Position numbers and translations under genes: made by a program
In this document: positions 30,173 through 64,000 of the stretch, piece by piece
Layout: each line of letters opens with the position of its first letter
How positions within the stretch are numbered: position 1 is the first letter of the stretch
The notes under the pieces: generated by a model
What the model saw: only the letters and a program-made list of their open reading frames with translations
What the model was told of the DNA's origin: nothing
The model's database searches: none
Source: Callorhinchus milii
Lineage: Eukaryota
Assembly (NCBI RefSeq): GCF_018977255.1
Contig: NW_024704747.1
Location: 434,001-498,000, forward strand
Direction: 5' to 3'
DNA length: 64,000 bases

Positions 30173-51219
<21,047 letters not shown>

Positions 51220-55575: not shown

Positions 55576-56071
55576 CTATAGCATGTAGCAATAGCATATA
55601 ACTAAACTAAAAGCATGCGGAACCATCACCGAGGTGAGGTCATGATGACTGAAGAACAGATGATGGAATATCTGAGGAAATGATGCCAAGACTGCCCCCA
55701 GCTCGGGTCCGTAGCTCTGTCTGTCCAGCGCCTTGGGACATCCCCCAACCTGAGAGGCGCTTTACATGTGTAATTTTGTTGTTGTTGGAGAGGAGCCTCT
55801 GAGTAGATGAGCTTATGATTGAGAGTCAGAGGAGAGCAATGATTGAGAAGATGCTGCCATTACTGAGATACTCAGAGCCACCACAGCAGAGATACTTGGC
55901 ACCGCCATGGCTGAGGGGCTGAGGCCCTCTCGGGTTAGTGGCGGGAAAGCGGCGGGTGGGCGGGGCTCACGTGCTGAGCACGAACTGCCTCGCGCTCCAG
56001 TGACCGTTGGCTGCGCGCGCCGCCTGAACGCGTGTTTTCGGTCGAATCGCCTCGTAGATATAACGGCCGCC

Positions 56072-56472
56072 CGCACTGCCCCCGCACCGACACCCTGACC
56101 CCCACACCGCCCCCGCACCGACACCCTGACCCCCACACCGCCCCCGCACCGACACCCTGACCCCCACACCGCCCCCGCACCGACACCCTGACCCCCACAC
56201 CGCCCCCGCACCGACACCCTGACCCCCACACCGCCTCCGCACCGACACCCCGCACTGCCCCCGCACCGACACCCTGACCCCCACACCCCGCACTGCCCCC
56301 GCACCGACACCCTGACCCCCACACCCCGCACTGCCCCCGCACCGACACCCTGACCCCCACACCCCGCACTGCCCCCGCACCGACACCCTGACCCCCACAC
56401 CCCGCACTGCCCCCGCACCGACACCCTGACCCCCACACCCGCTTCCCGCACTGCCCCCGCACCGACACCCTG
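56072..56472. repeat. 31/39-bp C-rich minisatellite upstream of the IF-gene ATG
   Basis: CCGCCCCCGCACCGACACCCTGACCCCCACA and a longer variant containing CCCCGCACTG, about 11 copies. Confidence 0.93.
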
Positions 56473-56562
56473 GACACTGACCGCCACACCCTGGACACCC
56501 GCCGTCCGGCCGGCAACACCCAGCTTCCCTTTACTTATTTGCAATAAATTAGTGAGGAAGAA

Positions 56563-59500
56563 ATGGCAACGGCGAGAGCTCCCGAGCGCGGCAACATGCA
56601 CCCGGCATGTGCGAGGCCCGTGGCCACTTGCCTTGACAAGAGTGGGGAGCTGGTGGAGCGGGAGCTGCATGACGGCCTGGAGGACGGCAAGGAACGCTTT
56701 AAAGACCTGAATGATCGCTTCGCCAAGTACATCAACAACACCATCCTCAGTCTGATGCGCAAAAACAAGGAGCTGCTGTCCGAGCTCAAACTGGCCGAGA
56801 AGGAGGAGAGCAGTCGCGTCGAAGCCATATTCCTGAGAGCTCGCTGCGACCTGAAGATAAAGCTGGACGAACACCAGAAAGAGCTGTCCGCCCTGAAGTC
56901 AGAAAAGGACAAGTACAAAAAGAGGTGCTTTCTTTCAGTCTGAGTTTGCTCAGAGAAATATTTTTGCAGATCGGCGCGATGCACATCTGTTTGCCGACAG
57001 AACCTTCTATTTGCAACTTTTTGTTTTCAATATACGATTATGAACAATTAGAAATTTGGGTTCAAATTCATAAACAAGAGGTCATATCTTCAAAATTAGG
57101 ACAAAAAAAAGAAAATATTATACATATGTCTTTAGCAAACGGGTGATAGATATGTTGAACAAACGTATGCACAGGTGGTGGATGAACACAAAGTACCAAT
57201 GGTTTCAAAAAGTAACTCAACAATTTTTCTATGAGCTAAAACAAGTCTGGGTCAGTGATGTATTTCAAAGGAAAGCCATGCAATTTGAAGGAATTGTTTT
57301 AGTATTTTAAATTGATCAATTTCTGCCTCAAATAAATAATAGTAATCCTTGCATTTGATATAGCGCTTTTCACGTTTTCTCGACATCTCAAAGCGCTTCA
57401 CAGAATAGACTGTAAAGTGAATTGACTGTATATTTGTGGGCAAATGTGGCAGCTGATTGCGCACAGCAATGACCCACAAACAGTCGTGGATTGAAAATGA
57501 CCAATTTTTTATTGTTTTGTTTTGGAGGGATTATTATTAGGCGTGTGGAGTAAGGAAACTTGCCCAAGGTGTCGCCCTGCCTGGAATTGAACCCAGGTGC
57601 CTCGCTTGCAAAGCGAGTGCTCTAACCACTGAGCTACAGGACTACAATTACTATCCTGTTTGTGAATATTTGGGCGAAGCTTTAGATCTGGAGTTATGGA
57701 GATCATGAAATTGAACGTGGATGGTGATGAGATAAGATAAGCTCAGCATTAGTGAAGGAGGAAAGTATCTGAATATCACCAGGATAGTTCTGCTAAAACA
57801 GGTAGTTGATGAGGAAAATGTGCACAGAAGTAACAAAATTGTGGTGTCTTACAACAAATAGTTAAAGGATATATAATTGATGAGATCCTGTATATATTGA
57901 TTCTTTGTTATCTCCCGCCTCTCCCATATTCCCTGCTTAATGTCCAGCACCATCTATGTAAAGTATGTTGAAATGTTAATCTATATGAAACTCTCTATAT
58001 AAATGCAAGTTGTTATTGAGGCATAGAAGACAAACTTGACAAAACAAAGAGGCAATGTTGAAATTGTATAACAACAACTTGTTATAAGAGTGCCCTTCAC
58101 ATGAGATAATATCGCGGAATACTTCACAGTGGTGGGTTGGACGCTGAACAAGGGAGAAGGGGAGGGAGAAGCTGACCATAGGAGCAGGCGAAGAGATAGG
58201 TTTTAAGGTGGGATTTAAAGAAAGCTAGAGAGGGGGGCGTGTTGGAGAGTTAGCGACGAGATTTCCAGAAGTTAGCATGTAATAACTGAAGGCTTAGCCG
58301 CTGATGGTGAGGTGGAGGCAAGGGACGCACAGAAGGCCTGTTCAACAAAAACAACAAAAAACATTTCTATAGTACCTTTCACATCAGAAGGACATCCCAA
58401 AGCACTGGACAGTTAAGGGTTTGCTGGAGTTTGGAATCAGGAGGGGTGAAGGGTAGTGGTGGGGGTGGGAGCGGGTCCGATAGTAGGATCAAAGAGGAGT
58501 CTTGAGACGGGCTTTGAAGGAGGCGAGCGAGAGGATGAGGTGGAGGGATTCTGGGAGGGAGTTCCAGAGGGTGGGAGCAGAAAAGCTGAAGATCCGACCA
58601 CCGATGGTGGTGGGGGGGGCAGGGTGGGTGCCATGAAGTATGCCAGTGCCCACCAAGCGAAGGGAGCAGACAGGTTGGTACAGTGTTAATAAAGAAAGTG
58701 TAAAAATATTTTAAAAAGGGCCAGAGGCTTTCCTACTTTGTTGTCCATTTCAATGATTCATGCTTTTTGTTACAGATTAGAAAAAGACATTCAACAAAGA
58801 AAGGAATGTGAAAAAGATTTTGAAGAGTTAAAAAAGGCAAGTATATTTCTTAACCAATGATACCAACCATTTCTCGTGGTCAATAAATTTATTCTTCACA
58901 TAACATAGAATCAGACCTCAGACATCTAAAATGAAATGTCTGTTTCCAACTATGATAGTTAACTATGATATTGGCGAATTGTATTCATGATGTTAAATGC
59001 AGTTTGTTTTAAGATTCGTAGTTTGGGAGAAAGCACAGATCCCAAATTAGGCAAGTGCAAGTGAAAGTCTGATGAGCAAAACAAGCCCTAGGGCTCTGTT
59101 AAGTTGCATCCCAGAATGTGAGGGAAAATCAGGAGGAGATAGTAGTCTCTGATTTTCCATACGTCCTTAGAGACTAGTCAGATGCCAGAGGTTTGGAGGT
59201 GGCTTAGGTGGTGCCACTGTTCAAGAAGGGTGCTAAAAATAAGCCATGGAACTGCAGGCCAGTTAGCCATACATCAGTTGTGGGTAAACCTCTGGAGGCA
59301 ATATAAGAGACTAGATATGGAGTCCTGTAGCTCACTGGTTAGAGCACTCGCTTTGCAAGCGAGAGACCTGGGTTCAATTCCAGGCAGGGCGAAACCTTGG
59401 GCAAGTTTCTTTACTCCACACGCCTAATAATAATCCCTCCAAAAAACCCAAAACAATAATAAATTGGTCATTTTCAATCTATGACTGTTTGTGGGACATT

Positions 59501-62500
59501 GCTGTGCACAATTGGCTGCCGCGTTCGCCCACAAATATACAGTCAATTCACTTTACAGTATATTCTGTGAAGCGCTTTGGGACGTCCTCCCGACGTGAAA
59601 AGCGCTATATCAAATGTAAGAATTATTATTATAGATAGCAATTACAGTACTTAAATCTTCATGAGTTAATCAGTCAGTCAGCCAGGGTTTATAATGGGCA
59701 GATCATGTTTGACCAATTTAATAGAGTTTGTTGAAGTAGCAACTGAAAGTGTAGGACAAGGCAATGTTCTGGATGTTGTGTATCTGAGTTTCCAGGAGGC
59801 ATTTGATAAGGTGACACATGGAATATTGGTGGAGAATCTCAGGGTATGTGGATAGGTCTGGATAGAAAGGTGGTTGACAAAAAGGGTTAATAGAATCATA
59901 GGTGGAATCTTAGGTTCTCCTACAAAAGTAGTTACTGCACTTTATAATGAATCCTGAGTTTGAGATGGTCAATAATATGGTAAGGCAATATATCAAACGC
60001 AAGGATTATTATTATGAAATGAACTGGAGTTCAATACAGAACCTATAATGGCTTTGAAAAGGGAATTAGACTAATATTTGAAAAATAATAATTTGAAAAG
60101 ATACTGGAGAAAGTGCAGGAGTGGGAAAAATTAGGAAGTTGCTTCAGAGAGTCAGCATAGACATGACAGGCTGAGTGGTCGCCTTCTGTCCTGGTGAATT
60201 CTATGATTTGAACATACCTGATAATAATACCGCAAGACAAAAAAAAATAATAAAAATTGGTTACTTCAATCCACGACTGTTTGTGGGACACTGCTGTGCA
60301 CAATTGGCTGTTGTGTTTTGCCCACAAATATACAGCCATTCAATTTACAATATATTCTGTGAAGCACTTTGAGACGTCTAGAAGACGTATATCAAATGCA
60401 AGGATTATTATTATTGATTTTACCTGGAAATAAGTAAATCCACCTTTTCCTGTAATGCTTCCCCATATACAGCCTAGAGCAGGGTTGTCCAATACATTAA
60501 CCACTAGCCACATGTGGCTAATTGGGAATCCAAAGGTGGCAAAATTGTACTTTTGATTAACAAATAAAAAATGAGTAACACACCATTGTTGGGCATGTGA
60601 CCTCAACACTCATATTCGCATGTGTATTTTCACCTTTTTGTGAGTCCTGGTAAAATAATAAGACCAAAAGCAGCATGTGCGAGTATTTTTTGATCGTGCT
60701 TTACTTCCTTAGTTGTTGCTTATTGGTTAGCTGCTAAAATTGTGTGTAACATGGGTGAAAATGCTGGATCTGCCACATCTCGCTAAAGAAAACTAAATAA
60801 AGAGAAGACCCACACATGCCCTGCTCTCCATCACAATGTGGTTGGATGCTGCTTGCCCTTTGCCTGCTGGAGATGTCCTTATTGGTTGGGCGTGCTTTCT
60901 TCTGCTGACCTGGAACAGTTATTTTGATTGGTCGAGCTGACCATGATTGATAGCTCCCCTCCCCACACAATATTGTTACTGAAATCTGGAATTTTCAACG
61001 ACAACTTGCATTTATATAGTGCTATTCACGCAGGATAGCGTCCCGGAGCGCTTGACAGTGGTGGTGTCTGACCCTGAGCCAGGGGGAGAGAGGGGGAGCT
61101 GACCATAAGCACGATAACCATTTGCACCCTGGTTGCAGGTGAACGGAAAAGCAACCGACCAATTTGGTGAAAGAGAAAGACTGCAAAGTTTTGCAATGAA
61201 TGGTGGTAAAATGTTTAAGTAAATGTACATGTAAATGTACATCCAAAGTACACATACCTGTATCGTGTGAGTGCATGTAAGGTGTTTTCTGCTAAAATTA
61301 GTGCATGTGGCTAAAATGGTGTTGTCTGTGGCTATTTAGTGATTTCTATTGGATGACGCTGACGTAATGATTGTGTAGAAGCAAGCAATAGTTTGTTTAA
61401 CAACAAAGGAAAAAAGTTTACTGCATTAGAATTTTCATTGATACTCTTATTGACAAAGTCAAATTGAATTTGCAGAAGAGCGATGAAACCAGTGTGGCGC
61501 TAGATAAACTTCAGCGTAGGGTTCGCCTGATGGAAATACAGCTCTTACAACTGGAAGAAATACGCGAACAAGTGAGTACAGCAGCTGAAGTGCTATACCT
61601 AAATCTGTTTTGTTAGAATGATCCAGTTAACACTAGTAAGTCCTTAAATCATCGACAATTTACATACATTTAACAATTCACACAGCTGATTGTGGGCCCG
61701 AATTAGTAGGAGGGAAACTGAGAGTGGCCGAAAGATAGATCTTAAAATGGGTTTTGAAGGCAGGAGGGAGGGAGAATGACAGAGGGCCTCCAGCATAGGG
61801 TTCCAGAGAGTCGAAGCAGAATGGTTCAAATCTCACCTACCAATGGTGGGGAGAATCAGGTGGTGGACATGCAGCAGGCTGGTGCAGAATTGTGAGTTGA
61901 GAAGACGCTGACAGGAGCTAAGCAGGAGAGCCCTGGTCTTGTTGACCTTCACAACTGAAGAAAGTTAGAGCTCATCCAGGACTTGATATCTGAAAGGCAG
62001 TCGGTCAGAACAGCATTGGTCCTGGATTGAAGAATAAAAGAAGCAGAGCAATAGAGTTGAGTGTCCAAACAGCATACAAGTCCTGAGGAACTCTGTGTGT
62101 GACTCTGTGGGGGCGAGATTGGAATAAATGAATAAAATACAAAGAAAAAGGTTTTGTGTTCACCTTAGAAACACTAATAACTATCCTTCAGATTTCATTT
62201 CATCTGAGGGCTATGAGCGTTCAGGTCAAGTCTTTTTAAATGCTACGTACCTGGATTTACATTTTTTTTCACAGATAAACTCAAAATATACATTTCATCC
62301 TTTTCCCATTCAAACTGTCTTTTACAGGAGCGGGTTTACTGGCAGAAGAAAGTTGACCACATACAACATCTTGAACAAGCAGATCAAATCAAATCAGAAC
62401 TGGAACAGGCTTTGAAAGAGATTCATTGTGAATATGAACAGCTTGCTAAAAGGAATAAAGAGGATATGGAAAGATATAAGCAGAAGGTATATAGAAAAGC

Positions 62501-63760
62501 AACAATCCATCGTAGATACTGAATTGAGAATTTAGAAATGAATCCTAGGTTTTATAAATAAGTATACAATATAAAATCAAAGAGTCAATGCCAAACTTAC
62601 GTAAATTGTTAGGTAGACTGCAGTTAGAATATTGTGTTCAGTTTTTGGCATTCCACTTTAGGAAGGACATCAAGGTCATATAGAGACGGTGCAAAGGAGA
62701 TTTACTGGGTTGATATCGGGGATGAAATGGTTTGGCCTATGAGCAGAGACTGAAGGAATTGGGACTTCTTTTGTTAAACAAGGAAAATTATTCTTTTAAT
62801 TTGTGCTTTATTCATAGTTTGAGGAGGCAAGTAATATTTCATTGCAAAATGCTAGGAAGGAATTGGAATCCTATCGCAAAGAGTTGAGTGAATTAAAATT
62901 GAAAGTGAGTATCGAGCTATCTTTCCATTGGTAAAGTGCATCTCAGTTTTTTTCTCAGTAATATTAGTTACCCCAAATCCTACCACTCCACGCTTCCTGT
63001 CCTCAAATTCCTAAAAACCTACCTCGTCTCCATGCTTTTGTTTACAACCCTGTTACCCACTACTTCTCATCTTGCTATGGATTTCATACCAACTCTTTAT
63101 TTTATCCTATGTGAAAGATAATAATAATAATCCTTGTATTTGATAGAGTGCTTTTCACGTCTTCCAGTATAGAATATATTATAAAGTGAATTGATTGTAT
63201 ATTTTGTGGATGAAATGCGGCAGCTAATTGTGCACAGCCGTGTACCATAAACAGTCGTGGATTGAGTGACAAATTTTTTTTCTTGAGGGATTATTATCAT
63301 TATTAATTATTATTAGTAATTATTATTAATTATAATAATAGTGTTATCTTAATATTATTATTACGATGCTTTAGAAGTGCACATTGTTCTTGTTATAGTG
63401 ACATGGGATGTTTCGTATCTACCTGAGGCAGACATGTGCTCCTCAACTTCCCATCCAAAGGACAGCGCGTCCGACAATATAGCTGATCTATAAAAGACCT
63501 CTAAATACCCTTAATATGTAGCATATGTGTAACTGATCTATGAAATCATTTTCTTCTAAAAATAAGGATGAATTAATGAAGAACACACTGCTAGATAAGG
63601 AAAGAGAAATGAACAAGTGTAGGGATGTCGGTAAAGCAATGGAAAAGAAGATTGTAATTCATACAAATGAATATCAGGAACTGCTCAATGTAAAGACTCA
63701 ACTTGAGCAGGAGATTGCTGCTTACAAAAATCTTCTGAATCAGGTGGAGAAGAAAGCAAG
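56563..63760 (+). CDS. Divergent intermediate filament protein with type III-like gene structure; partial, continues beyond the window
   Basis: Exons 56563-56924, 58776-58836 (61 nt, GC donor), 61476-61571 (96 nt), 62328-62486 (159 nt), 62818-62904 (87 nt), 63567-63760 (acceptor less certain). Frame is open across all joins. Coil 1A motif KERFKDLNDRFAKYI, coil 2 start LEQALKEIHCEYEQLAKRNKE, rod end EYQELLNVKTQLEQEIAAYKNLL. Confidence 0.85.
57336..57644 (-). mobile_element. Full-length tRNA-derived SINE
   Basis: Same head, body and tail as 6976-7308. Confidence 0.9.
59150..59890 (+). mobile_element. CR1 LINE RT fragment split by the SINE at 59319
   Basis: VPLFKKG..N.RPVS, GRSCLTNLIEF, DVVYLSFQEAFDKV. 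Other CR1 pieces at about 20545-20676, 35540-35760, 40270-40935 (-), 45675-45885, 62555-62780. Confidence 0.85.
59319..59632 (+). mobile_element. Full-length tRNA-derived SINE inserted in a CR1 fragment
   Basis: Same family as 6976-7308; possible TAGATA target-site duplication. Confidence 0.9.
60480..61361. mobile_element. Non-autonomous hAT (Charlie1/MER3-like) DNA transposon remnant
   Basis: Imperfect terminal inverted repeats CAGGGTTGTCCAATA ... TATTGGATGACGCTG, subterminal CCACTAGCCACATGTGGCTA and TGTGGCTA motifs, left flank GCCTAGAG resembling a Charlie target site. Confidence 0.6.
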
Positions 63761-64000
63761 GTTAGTACTTTGTAAGTAAGGCTTGTAGGTCAAGTATACC
63801 AACAACTTACATTTGTACAGCATTTTTCATGTTGGGAGCATGTCTCAAAGCGCTTCACACAGCTGACTGGAAGCCTGAGCTGGGGGGTGGGAGAACTGAA
63901 GGGGGTGGGGGAGGCGCCTAAAAGTGTGGTTGAAAATAAAATTCTTAAGGTGGGCCTTAAAGATGTATGGGAAGGGGCGAGGCAGACGGAGTTCAGGATA

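What the first reader, a model, noticed from the sequence alone, without database searches (positions are those of the whole stretch)
56563..63760. Divergent type III-like intermediate filament gene with a shortened rod, next to ABCB6
Seen: six exons join in one open frame (about 319 aa to the rod end) with coil 1A LNDRFAKYI and rod end EYQELLNVK..LEQEIAAYKNLL. Established: type III IF genes (VIM, DES, GFAP, PRPH) have one first exon covering head to early coil 1B, then exons of 61, 96, 162, 126 and 221 nt; type II keratins have an extra earlier intron. Here the series is 61, 96, 159, 87, 194 with no extra intron, so the structure is type III. The protein is far from any canonical type III member: a head of only about 42 aa without the Ser/Arg-rich character, one extra residue in coil 1A, about one heptad missing from coil 1B, roughly 24 residues missing from coil 2, and the near-invariant YRKLLEGEE changed to YKNLLNQVE. 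Inference: a fast-evolving, lineage-specific paralogue, possibly desmin-derived since DES lies near ABCB6 on human 2q35, that may need a partner or act as an assembly modifier.
Basis: partly seen in the sequence, partly recalled or inferred. Interest (0 to 1): 0.85.

Follow-up and report, generated by a model that had tools for sequence, protein, structure and literature searches.

The report
Stutter-less short-rod shark filament protein family
An intact gene shared by chimaeras, sharks and rays encodes a relative of desmin and vimentin whose central rod is 31 residues shorter and lacks the kink and charge pattern such proteins use to build filaments, so it likely forms a different kind of structure and could show which textbook assembly features are really required.

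Summary
Confirmed and larger than reported. The six exons splice in frame, and three tail exons past the window complete a 354-aa protein whose 8 intron phases match desmin's. Full-length orthologues from 17 sharks and rays have the same short rod (264 residues between the end motifs vs 295 in desmin; 70-79% identity in the six aligned). The genome also holds a spliced paralogue 30 kb from desmin and two intronless copies. No member turned up outside cartilaginous fishes. New here: the coil-2 stutter, described as obligatory in IFs, is gone. So are the tetramer knob Phe, the basic head, the acidic rod and the 9.8-residue charge period. Heptads, intradimer salt bridges and both rod-end motifs remain, under purifying selection. 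Best reading (inferred): family-internal coiled-coil dimers that do not pack into ordinary 10-nm filaments. Evolution was fast only on the stem. Descent from desmin rests on synteny alone; trees disfavour it and weakly point to filensin. Expression of this gene and assembly are untested. Only automatic '-like' names exist; five paper searches and the scan's notes showed no description.

The parts
56001..56562 (.). CpG island and likely promoter, including a GC-rich tandem repeat (about 56060-56500); likely shared head-to-head with a non-coding first exon of ABCB6 (inferred)
   Evidence: GC 0.74 and CpG o/e 1.08 at 56001-56500, partly due to the repeat. ABCB6's first coding exon starts at a splice acceptor, and a minus-strand GTGAG donor lies near 55970.
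56563..56924 (+). Exon 1: upstream ATG (56563), conserved ATG (56596), short acidic head, pre-coil, coil 1A with one extra residue (near 56734-56745), L1, and coil 1B lacking one heptad; phase 2
   Evidence: Pfam Filament E 5e-6
58776..58836 (+). Exon 2, 61 nt, GC-AG donor shared with the spliced paralogue
61476..61571 (+). Exon 3, 96 nt; the tetramer knob Phe position is Gln
   Evidence: Q in 15 of 15 family rows
62328..62486 (+). Exon 4, 159 nt: end of coil 1B with a family-specific YW motif, L12 and start of coil 2; the Trp of the AEEW motif is deleted
62818..62904 (+). Exon 5, 87 nt, 13 residues shorter than desmin's, in the hendecad region
63567..63760 (+). Exon 6, 194 nt: stutter-less coil 2 (35 instead of 46 residues to the EYQ motif) and altered termination motif YKNLLNQVEKK; phase 2
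   Evidence: Pfam Filament E 9e-10
63761..64000 (+). Start of intron 6. The gene runs on past the window edge: exon 7 (35 nt, L005:2643-2677, phase 1), exon 8 (68 nt, L005:4131-4198, acidic Ser-rich tail motif, phase 0) and exon 9 (36 nt with the stop, L005:5963-5998); L005 begins at the base after window position 64000
   Evidence: the tail matches the 17 full-length orthologues, whose last 12 residues are identical in 16
50701..51201 (-). Neighbour: first coding exon of ABCB6 (MTABC_N domain), divergently oriented

Best explanation
This is an intact nine-exon gene, conserved in sharks and rays, for an intermediate-filament-family protein with a 31-residue shorter, stutter-less, uncharged rod, which is predicted to form coiled-coil dimers with itself or its own paralogues that likely do not pack side by side into ordinary 10-nm filaments. 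Shown: the gene, its four copies in this genome, its conservation, and the loss of the stutter, knob Phe, AEEW Trp, basic head, acidic rod and 9.8-residue charge period. Inferred step 1: unbroken heptads and favourable g-e' pairs give a parallel in-register dimer; equal rod lengths within the family (263-264) and a 31-residue mismatch with desmin keep dimers family-internal. Inferred step 2: the retained LNDR and LLNVK..LE.E..Y ends, now an acidic pre-coil (-3) and a basic rod end (+2), let dimers join head to tail. Inferred step 3: with the lateral-packing signals gone, the product is a soluble rod or a thin end-to-end fibre that serves as a scaffold, and the invariant acidic tail is the docking site for a partner. 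Origin: an old duplicate from the type III/IV/filensin group that was remodelled before chimaeras and sharks split, then tandem-duplicated and retroposed.
For: Conservation: 17 of 17 full-length spliced orthologues have rod 264; rod identity to the six aligned is 70-79%; dN/dS between own-genome paralogues is 0.13-0.35, with one of four pairs saturated. Stutter: the hydrophobic phase is unchanged in 6 of 6 windows of coil 2 over 15 family rows, whereas 19 type III rows shift by 4 in the two N-terminal windows. Papers call the stutter obligatory or conserved in all IFs (PMC3065449, PMC11121635). Knob: Gln in 15 of 15 vs Phe in 16 of 19 type III rows; knob mutants impair tetramers and filaments (PMC8466517, PMC7555247). 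Charge: head -4, rod +2, tail -10 vs desmin +6, -19, -1. The 9-10-residue charge period is significant for type III in both coils (p 0.001) and absent in the family (p 0.66, 0.998); per sequence in coil 2 it reaches p 0.05 or less in 0 of 15 vs 6 of 7. Headless type III proteins do not assemble (PMC11900225). Dimer: g-e' pairs are 4 attractive and 0 repulsive for all seven family pairings tested vs 2 and 2 with desmin, over the last 49 residues. The AlphaFold monomer of an orthologue is one helix, 17-309, with disordered ends.
Against: No assembly, binding, localisation or expression result exists for this gene. A neutral rod might not need a basic head, so loss of the charge code could mean re-coding rather than loss of packing. 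The second knob position stays hydrophobic (I/V in 15 of 15) and a new invariant YW lies nearby. Filensin has a 29-residue shorter rod and still co-polymerises with a normal-length partner (PMC10626283). GFAP lacking exon 5 still forms long filaments (PMC11900225). The g-e' count is crude: keratin homo- and hetero-pairs scored 4/0, 2/0 and 3/0, so it does not recover keratin specificity. The AlphaFold model is a monomer with pTM 0.29 and says nothing on oligomers.
Confidence: 0.5

Rival explanations
1. Mechanism rival: an obligate co-polymer or assembly modifier, as with filensin or nestin. It cannot assemble alone but enters filaments of a normal-length IF, or of its intronless paralogue, at the tetramer level.
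For: Short head as in nestin (PMC11121635). Filensin's short rod co-assembles with phakinin (PMC10626283). Both rod-end motifs are kept. There is a weak filensin affinity. Two conserved clades, spliced and intronless, could act as a pair.
Against: The features that mediate contacts between dimers (knob, charge period) are the ones lost. Filensin keeps an acidic rod (-14) and the stutter, and this family does not. g-e' pairing with desmin is unfavourable.
Confidence: 0.25
2. Mechanism rival: a self-assembling compact filament with a re-coded interface. The neutral rod needs no basic head, the YW motif replaces the knob, and the axial repeat is about 4-5 nm shorter (31 residues at about 0.15 nm, recalled rise).
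For: Rod length is 263-265 in nearly all full-length members, as expected if geometry matters. Complementary end charges of -3 and +2. Purifying selection.
Against: No periodic charge pattern replaces the lost one: no strong peak between 6 and 14 residues. Shark and ray annotations list in-frame isoforms lacking exon 3 or exon 4, and loss of exon 3 abolishes GFAP assembly.
Confidence: 0.2
3. Origin rival: the family is the sister of filensin (BFSP1), not a derivative of desmin.
For: Own-genome BFSP1 shares 14 of 60 family-derived residues vs 3-9 in nine other divergent IFs (permutation p 0.001). It also shares the LN[DE]RFAKYIN start and the same intron phases. Both trees join them, at 64% and 61% of 400 bootstraps.
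Against: Both are long branches and the tool warns of false attraction. BFSP1 scores 27 bits on the family profile vs 75 on type III. One of 24 heptad-shifted controls reached a higher match fraction, 0.27 vs 0.23. The deletions fall in different exons. Only one BFSP1 sequence was available.
Confidence: 0.3
4. Origin rival: a local duplicate of desmin that diverged rapidly.
For: Same block: ABCB6 at C6:485 kb, ATG9 at 706 kb, the spliced paralogue at 854-860 kb and desmin at 889-897 kb. 8 of 8 intron phases match. The type III profile fits best.
Against: Identity to desmin is 28%, no higher than to GFAP, peripherin or vimentin (28-30%). AU p 0.026, 0.052 and 0.129, uncorrected for several tests per set. 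0 of 400 mixture bootstraps.
Confidence: 0.3
5. A decaying pseudogene or an annotation artefact with missed exons.
For: No full-length record of this exact protein was returned; only partial models (P0032, P0066, P0210).
Against: Open frame over nine exons, 17 full-length orthologues, intronless copies with the same rod, and dN/dS far below 1.
Confidence: 0.02

Closest known systems
Type III IF proteins (desmin, vimentin, GFAP, peripherin)
   Same: Nine exons with identical intron phases, 61- and 96-nt exons, LNDR start, L1 and L12 lengths; best class profile (type III ahead of IV, keratin I and keratin II by 65, 81 and 116 summed bits, column bootstrap 0.005 or less).
   Different: 28-30% rod identity; rod 31 residues shorter; no stutter, knob Phe or AEEW Trp; acidic 30-aa head without the SSYRRxFGG motif; neutral rod without the 9.8-residue charge period; altered end motif; acidic tail without the TIET(R/K)DG motif.
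Filensin (BFSP1)
   Same: Short head, short rod (268 in this genome; 29 residues missing from coil 2 per PMC10626283), same first six intron phases, some shared derived residues.
   Different: A separate gene on C3. Its deletions lie in exons 4-5 (90/114 nt) with exon 6 intact and the stutter kept; acidic rod; long tail in mammals; 22% identity.
Nestin / synemin
   Same: Very short head; nestin cannot self-assemble (PMC11121635).
   Different: The own-genome nestin/synemin-like gene has most of the rod in one open frame and scores 3 bits on the family profile. Long tails and normal rod length are recalled.
Killifish short-rod desmin-like proteins (Austrofundulus, Kryptolebias)
   Same: Rod 273, with a heptad gap at the same place in coil 1B.
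   Different: Coil-2 gaps are whole heptads by alignment, so the stutter appears kept; no coil-1A insertion; not grouped with the family.
Isomin (springtail IF)
   Same: Departs from the four-residue stutter (PMC3065449).
   Different: Still has a discontinuity, of two residues; an unrelated protostome protein.

Membership tests
Intermediate filament superfamily | Pfam Filament rod above the curated cut-off | tested here: met
   Orthologue P0236 100.8 bits and paralogues 100.3 and 78.9 vs cut-off 40; 3 of 5 single window exons tested hit, below cut-off
Intermediate filament superfamily | Helix initiation motif LNDR | tested here: met
   Arg in 15 of 15 rows
Intermediate filament superfamily | Helix termination motif TYRKLLEGEE | tested here: not met
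   YKxLLxQVE in 15 of 15
Intermediate filament superfamily | Coil-2 stutter and conserved coil lengths | tested here: not met
   35 vs 46 residues in exon 6; no phase shift; rod 264 vs 295
Intermediate filament superfamily | Assembly into about 10-nm filaments | not testable with these tools
   Needs in vitro or cell assembly
Type III IF | Intron positions and phases | tested here: met
   2,0,0,0,0,2,1,0 in both this gene and desmin; the first six are also shared with BFSP1
Type III IF | Falls inside the DES/VIM/GFAP/PRPH clade | tested here: inconclusive
   Unresolved at the base of type III/IV in all trees; the profile favours type III
Type III IF | Basic Ser/Arg head with the nonapeptide motif | tested here: not met
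   Head of 30 aa, net -4, 2 Arg, 1 Ser
Type III IF | Coil-1B knob Phe and acidic rod with about 9.8-residue charge period | tested here: not met
Desmin (orthologue) | Is the genome's desmin gene | tested here: not met
   Canonical desmin lies at G000:C6:889476-896857, 79% identical to marsupial desmin over the rod
Filensin (BFSP1) | Is the genome's BFSP1, with deletions in exons 4-5 only | tested here: not met
   A separate gene on C3 with exons 356/61/96/90/114/221; the name BFSP1 is assigned by recalled sequence features
Filensin (BFSP1) | Sister relationship | tested here: inconclusive
   61-64% bootstrap with a long-branch warning; the profile score is against
Filensin (BFSP1) | Lens-specific expression and co-assembly with phakinin | not tested
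   No expression data obtained
Type II keratin | Extra intron in coil 1A after FIDK | tested here: not met
   Present in 3 of 3 own-genome type II keratins inspected, absent here. The family's extra residue sits at that same spot, which may be chance.
Type I keratin | Type I sequence class | tested here: not met
   Only exon 6 scores marginally best on the type I profile (LE.EI); the whole rod favours type III

The most novel reading that the evidence does not exclude
A separate vertebrate intermediate-filament class confined to cartilaginous fishes, possibly the non-lens sister of filensin, that builds a real polymer with a shorter axial repeat and without the stutter, knob, basic head or charge period. 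The spliced and retroposed members could be its two chains. It would be a natural counter-example to features held to be obligatory for IF assembly.
Probability: 0.25. Interest if true: 0.87.

Novelty: new variant of a known kind. Interest (0 to 1): 0.7.

Why it matters
Rod length and the coil-2 stutter are treated as fixed properties of IF proteins, and how they control lateral packing versus elongation is an open structural question studied mostly with artificial mutants. This family is a long-selected natural version in which the stutter, knob, basic head and charge period were removed together while the dimer code and end motifs were kept. Expressing one 354-aa protein would directly test which features are needed for which assembly step. 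It also resolves a naming problem: the same gene is labelled vimentin-, desmin-, GFAP-, peripherin- or neurofilament-like, and the intronless copy even as a LACTB isoform, which can mislead expression studies in sharks and skates.

Tried and rejected
RNA evidence: no RNA holder was listed for exon 1; this is no evidence either way. The AlphaFold monomer was one long helix, and no fold search was run on it. The ESM Atlas returned only generic IF clusters. The PDB search gave only vimentin. A search for DNPEP as a desmin neighbour found nothing (not evidence of absence). Type II keratin origin: considered because of the 35-nt exon and the site of the extra residue. Rejected because own-genome type II keratins have a 50-nt candidate exon there and the extra intron, and their profile fits worst. 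Cyclostome members: lamprey P0108 and hagfish P0146 and P0071 lack the family's indels and do not group with it. Long or fused forms: only an automatic LACTB fusion model (a weak search). Missed exons: none plausible. Tissue of the GenBank record AFK11078.1: the supplements of PMC3466250 were unreadable and its main text has no mention of intermediate filaments. The class rod-length tallies are not used, because those rows had been pre-filtered to 292-304 residues; the class profiles use the same filtered rows (86 in all).
Full report
1. Observation. The six exons are real. Intron 2 uses a GC donor. The window is G000:C6:434001-498000. The next 10 kb hold three more exons of 35, 68 and 36 nt, plus an optional 51-nt candidate. 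Orthologues start at the second ATG, and from there the nine-exon product is 354 aa, the length of most shark orthologues. A scan for in-frame cassette exons gave 0 candidates in introns 3-5 and one poor candidate each in introns 1 and 2.

2. A family, not a single odd gene. The genome has three more members: a spliced paralogue at C6:854-860 kb and intronless copies on C26 and C4. All have the same short rod, which independently confirms the splice pattern. Database proteins identical to these copies are named as Callorhinchus milii. The search with the C26 copy gave 52 hits. The first 32 are all from cartilaginous fishes (134-733 bits); the other 20 are ordinary IFs at 28% identity or less. 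A profile search gave 32 family hits and 10 keratin-type proteins. HMMER over 1.84 billion representatives gave 607 hits, of which 150 were shown. Seven of those are family pieces (five named from cartilaginous fishes, two unnamed and shark- or skate-like) and the rest score 100 bits or less; the other 457 were not seen. Absence from bony vertebrates and cyclostomes is therefore shown for protein collections only, not genomes. All 17 full-length spliced orthologues retrieved have a rod of 264 residues and the same tail. The six aligned are 70-79% identical to the window rod, while own desmin vs marsupial desmin is 79%. Sources name these proteins vimentin-, desmin-, GFAP-, peripherin- or neurofilament-like.

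3. Gene structure and place. A canonical desmin lies at C6:889476-896857, with exons 536/61/96/162/126/221/44/86/45 and phases 2,0,0,0,0,2,1,0; the window gene has the same eight phases. ABCB6, ATG9, the paralogue and desmin lie in one 0.4-Mb block. Type II keratins in this genome do carry the extra coil-1A intron. However, the filensin-like gene on C3 has the same first six phases and no extra intron, so structure alone does not prove type III.

4. What changed in the rod. Relative to desmin there is +1 residue in coil 1A, -7 in coil 1B, -1 in exon 4 (the AEEW Trp, 15 of 15 rows), -13 in exon 5 and -11 in exon 6. The last is one heptad plus the four-residue stutter. In 15 family rows the hydrophobic phase does not change over six windows of coil 2, whereas 19 type III rows shift by four. 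Papers describe the stutter as obligatory (PMC3065449, passages; isomin there has a two-residue variant) or highly conserved in all IFs (PMC11121635, passages), and coil lengths as largely conserved (PMC8466517, passages). The coil-1B knob Phe is Gln in 15 of 15; knob mutants impair tetramers and filaments (PMC8466517; PMC7555247, passages). Net charge is head -4, rod +2, tail -10, against +6, -19, -1 in desmin. The 9.8-residue charge period is clear in type III coils 1B and 2 (p 0.001 each) and absent in the family (p 0.66 and 0.998); per sequence in coil 2 it is seen in 0 of 15 vs 6 of 7. Kept are the LNDR start, most of the end motif, regular heptads and favourable g-e' pairs (4 attractive and 0 repulsive within the family, 2 and 2 with desmin). 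That count is crude and fails on keratins. AlphaFold gave one long helix with disordered ends for an orthologue monomer.

5. Selection and tempo. dN/dS between own-genome paralogues is 0.16, 0.13 and 0.35, with the fourth pair saturated (a simple counting method, paralogues only). The family stem is 1.2-2.1 changes per site and the window protein's own branch 0.14. Remodelling and at least one retroposition therefore predate the chimaera-shark split (about 400 million years, recalled), after which change was ordinary.

6. Origin. Class profiles favour type III over type IV, keratin I and keratin II (column bootstrap 0.005 or less; built from 86 length-filtered rows). Trees leave the family unresolved near the base of type III/IV. 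Seven groupings were tested in each of two taxon sets. Only desmin came near rejection (p 0.026 with killifish rows, 0.052 without), and it gave 0.129 once filensin was included. Filensin shares 14 of 60 family-derived residues against 3-9 for nine other divergent IFs and joins the family in 61-64% of bootstraps. Against this, both are long branches, filensin scores higher on the type III profile (75 vs 27 bits), and one heptad-shifted control did better. I put origin at roughly 0.35 old stem duplicate, 0.3 filensin sister and 0.3 desmin duplicate. It is not filensin itself, which keeps the stutter and loses other residues.

7. Expression. Not shown for this gene, and junction reads were not obtained. 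Indirect signs: the full-length spliced skate orthologue P0236 occurs in Logan assemblies, which implies a spliced contig (inference). The C26 copy has a GenBank accession, AFK11078.1; that this is a cDNA-derived record is recalled, and its tissue may be in supplements I could not read. Retrocopies imply germline transcription of an ancestor (established principle), and all four genes have CpG-rich 5' ends. An unchecked scan note reports another old retrogene of cartilaginous fishes in this genome (e1-7812034); it is context only.

8. Mechanism. The pattern is selective: dimer and end-to-end features are kept, while features for side-by-side packing are lost. Headless type III proteins fail to assemble (PMC11900225, passages). 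I therefore favour family-internal dimers that stay soluble or link into thin fibres and present a conserved acidic tail (0.5; every step inferred). The rivals are co-polymerisation with a partner, as filensin does despite a 29-residue shorter rod (PMC10626283, passages; 0.25), and a re-coded self-assembling filament (0.2). GFAP without exon 5 still makes long filaments, so short rods alone do not bar assembly.

9. Novelty. Five literature searches (listings only) showed no paper on this family. Passages of two IF or keratin surveys (10.1101/2020.05.06.063123; PMC8733776) did not mention it. The library lacks most subscription journals, and supplements of those surveys were not read. The scan's own notes held nothing on it. 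Short rods are not unique: filensin and killifish desmin-like proteins have them. I found no other vertebrate example of clean stutter loss combined with charge neutralisation among the sequences examined. Verdict: a new variant of a known kind, outside the defining features of type III; interest 0.7.

Noticed in passing
G000:C26:6710867-6711889 (L003:742-1764): The intronless paralogue sits on the same strand between the first and later exons of LACTB. Automatic models fuse the two (P0238, P0225, P0230), and bamboo- and epaulette-shark orthologues are named LACTB isoforms, which suggests a conserved nested position.
   Followed up: partly
G000:C4:15888537-15889565 (L004:739-1767): The second intronless paralogue lies about 4 kb upstream of a TPP2-like first exon (name recalled) and downstream of an open frame of at least 1439 codons; no elasmobranch counterpart of this copy was resolved.
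   Followed up: partly
G000:C6:854115-859638: The spliced paralogue (P0019), 30 kb from desmin, has 8 exons, the same GC donor in intron 2 and a poly-Asp tail; no shark or ray orthologue appeared in the searches.
   Followed up: partly
L005:3800-3850 (about 3.8 kb past the window): A frame-preserving 51-nt candidate exon with good splice sites, absent from orthologue proteins; a 36-nt candidate lies at the same place in the paralogue.
   Followed up: no
P0020-P0029: Annotated shark and ray isoforms skip exon 3 (2 records) or exon 4 (7 records) in frame, across several orders.
   Followed up: no
exons 8-9, L005:4131-5998: The tail motif (hydrophobic residues, then SSSDED and an acidic run) is nearly invariant in 17 orthologues and resembles a CK2-regulated SUMO-binding motif; the resemblance is recalled and untested.
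   Followed up: no
window 55970-56560: Possible bidirectional CpG promoter with ABCB6. All four family genes have CpG-rich 5' ends.
   Followed up: partly
G000:C2:18.42-18.47 Mb: Two tandem vimentin-like genes, one about twice as diverged as the other.
   Followed up: partly
P0080, P0083, P0078: Killifish carry divergent desmin-like proteins with rods of 273-288 residues, apparently an independent shortening.
   Followed up: partly
window 4500-51200: Neighbours: CNOT9/Rcd1 (minus strand), a USP37-like gene (name recalled; the one exon tested had no Pfam hit), BCS1L (plus) and ABCB6 (minus), a block recalled from human 2q35.
   Followed up: partly
window 59670-59852: An older automatic model (P0032) wrongly starts this gene in a LINE-like fragment of intron 2 and skips exon 5.
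   Followed up: yes
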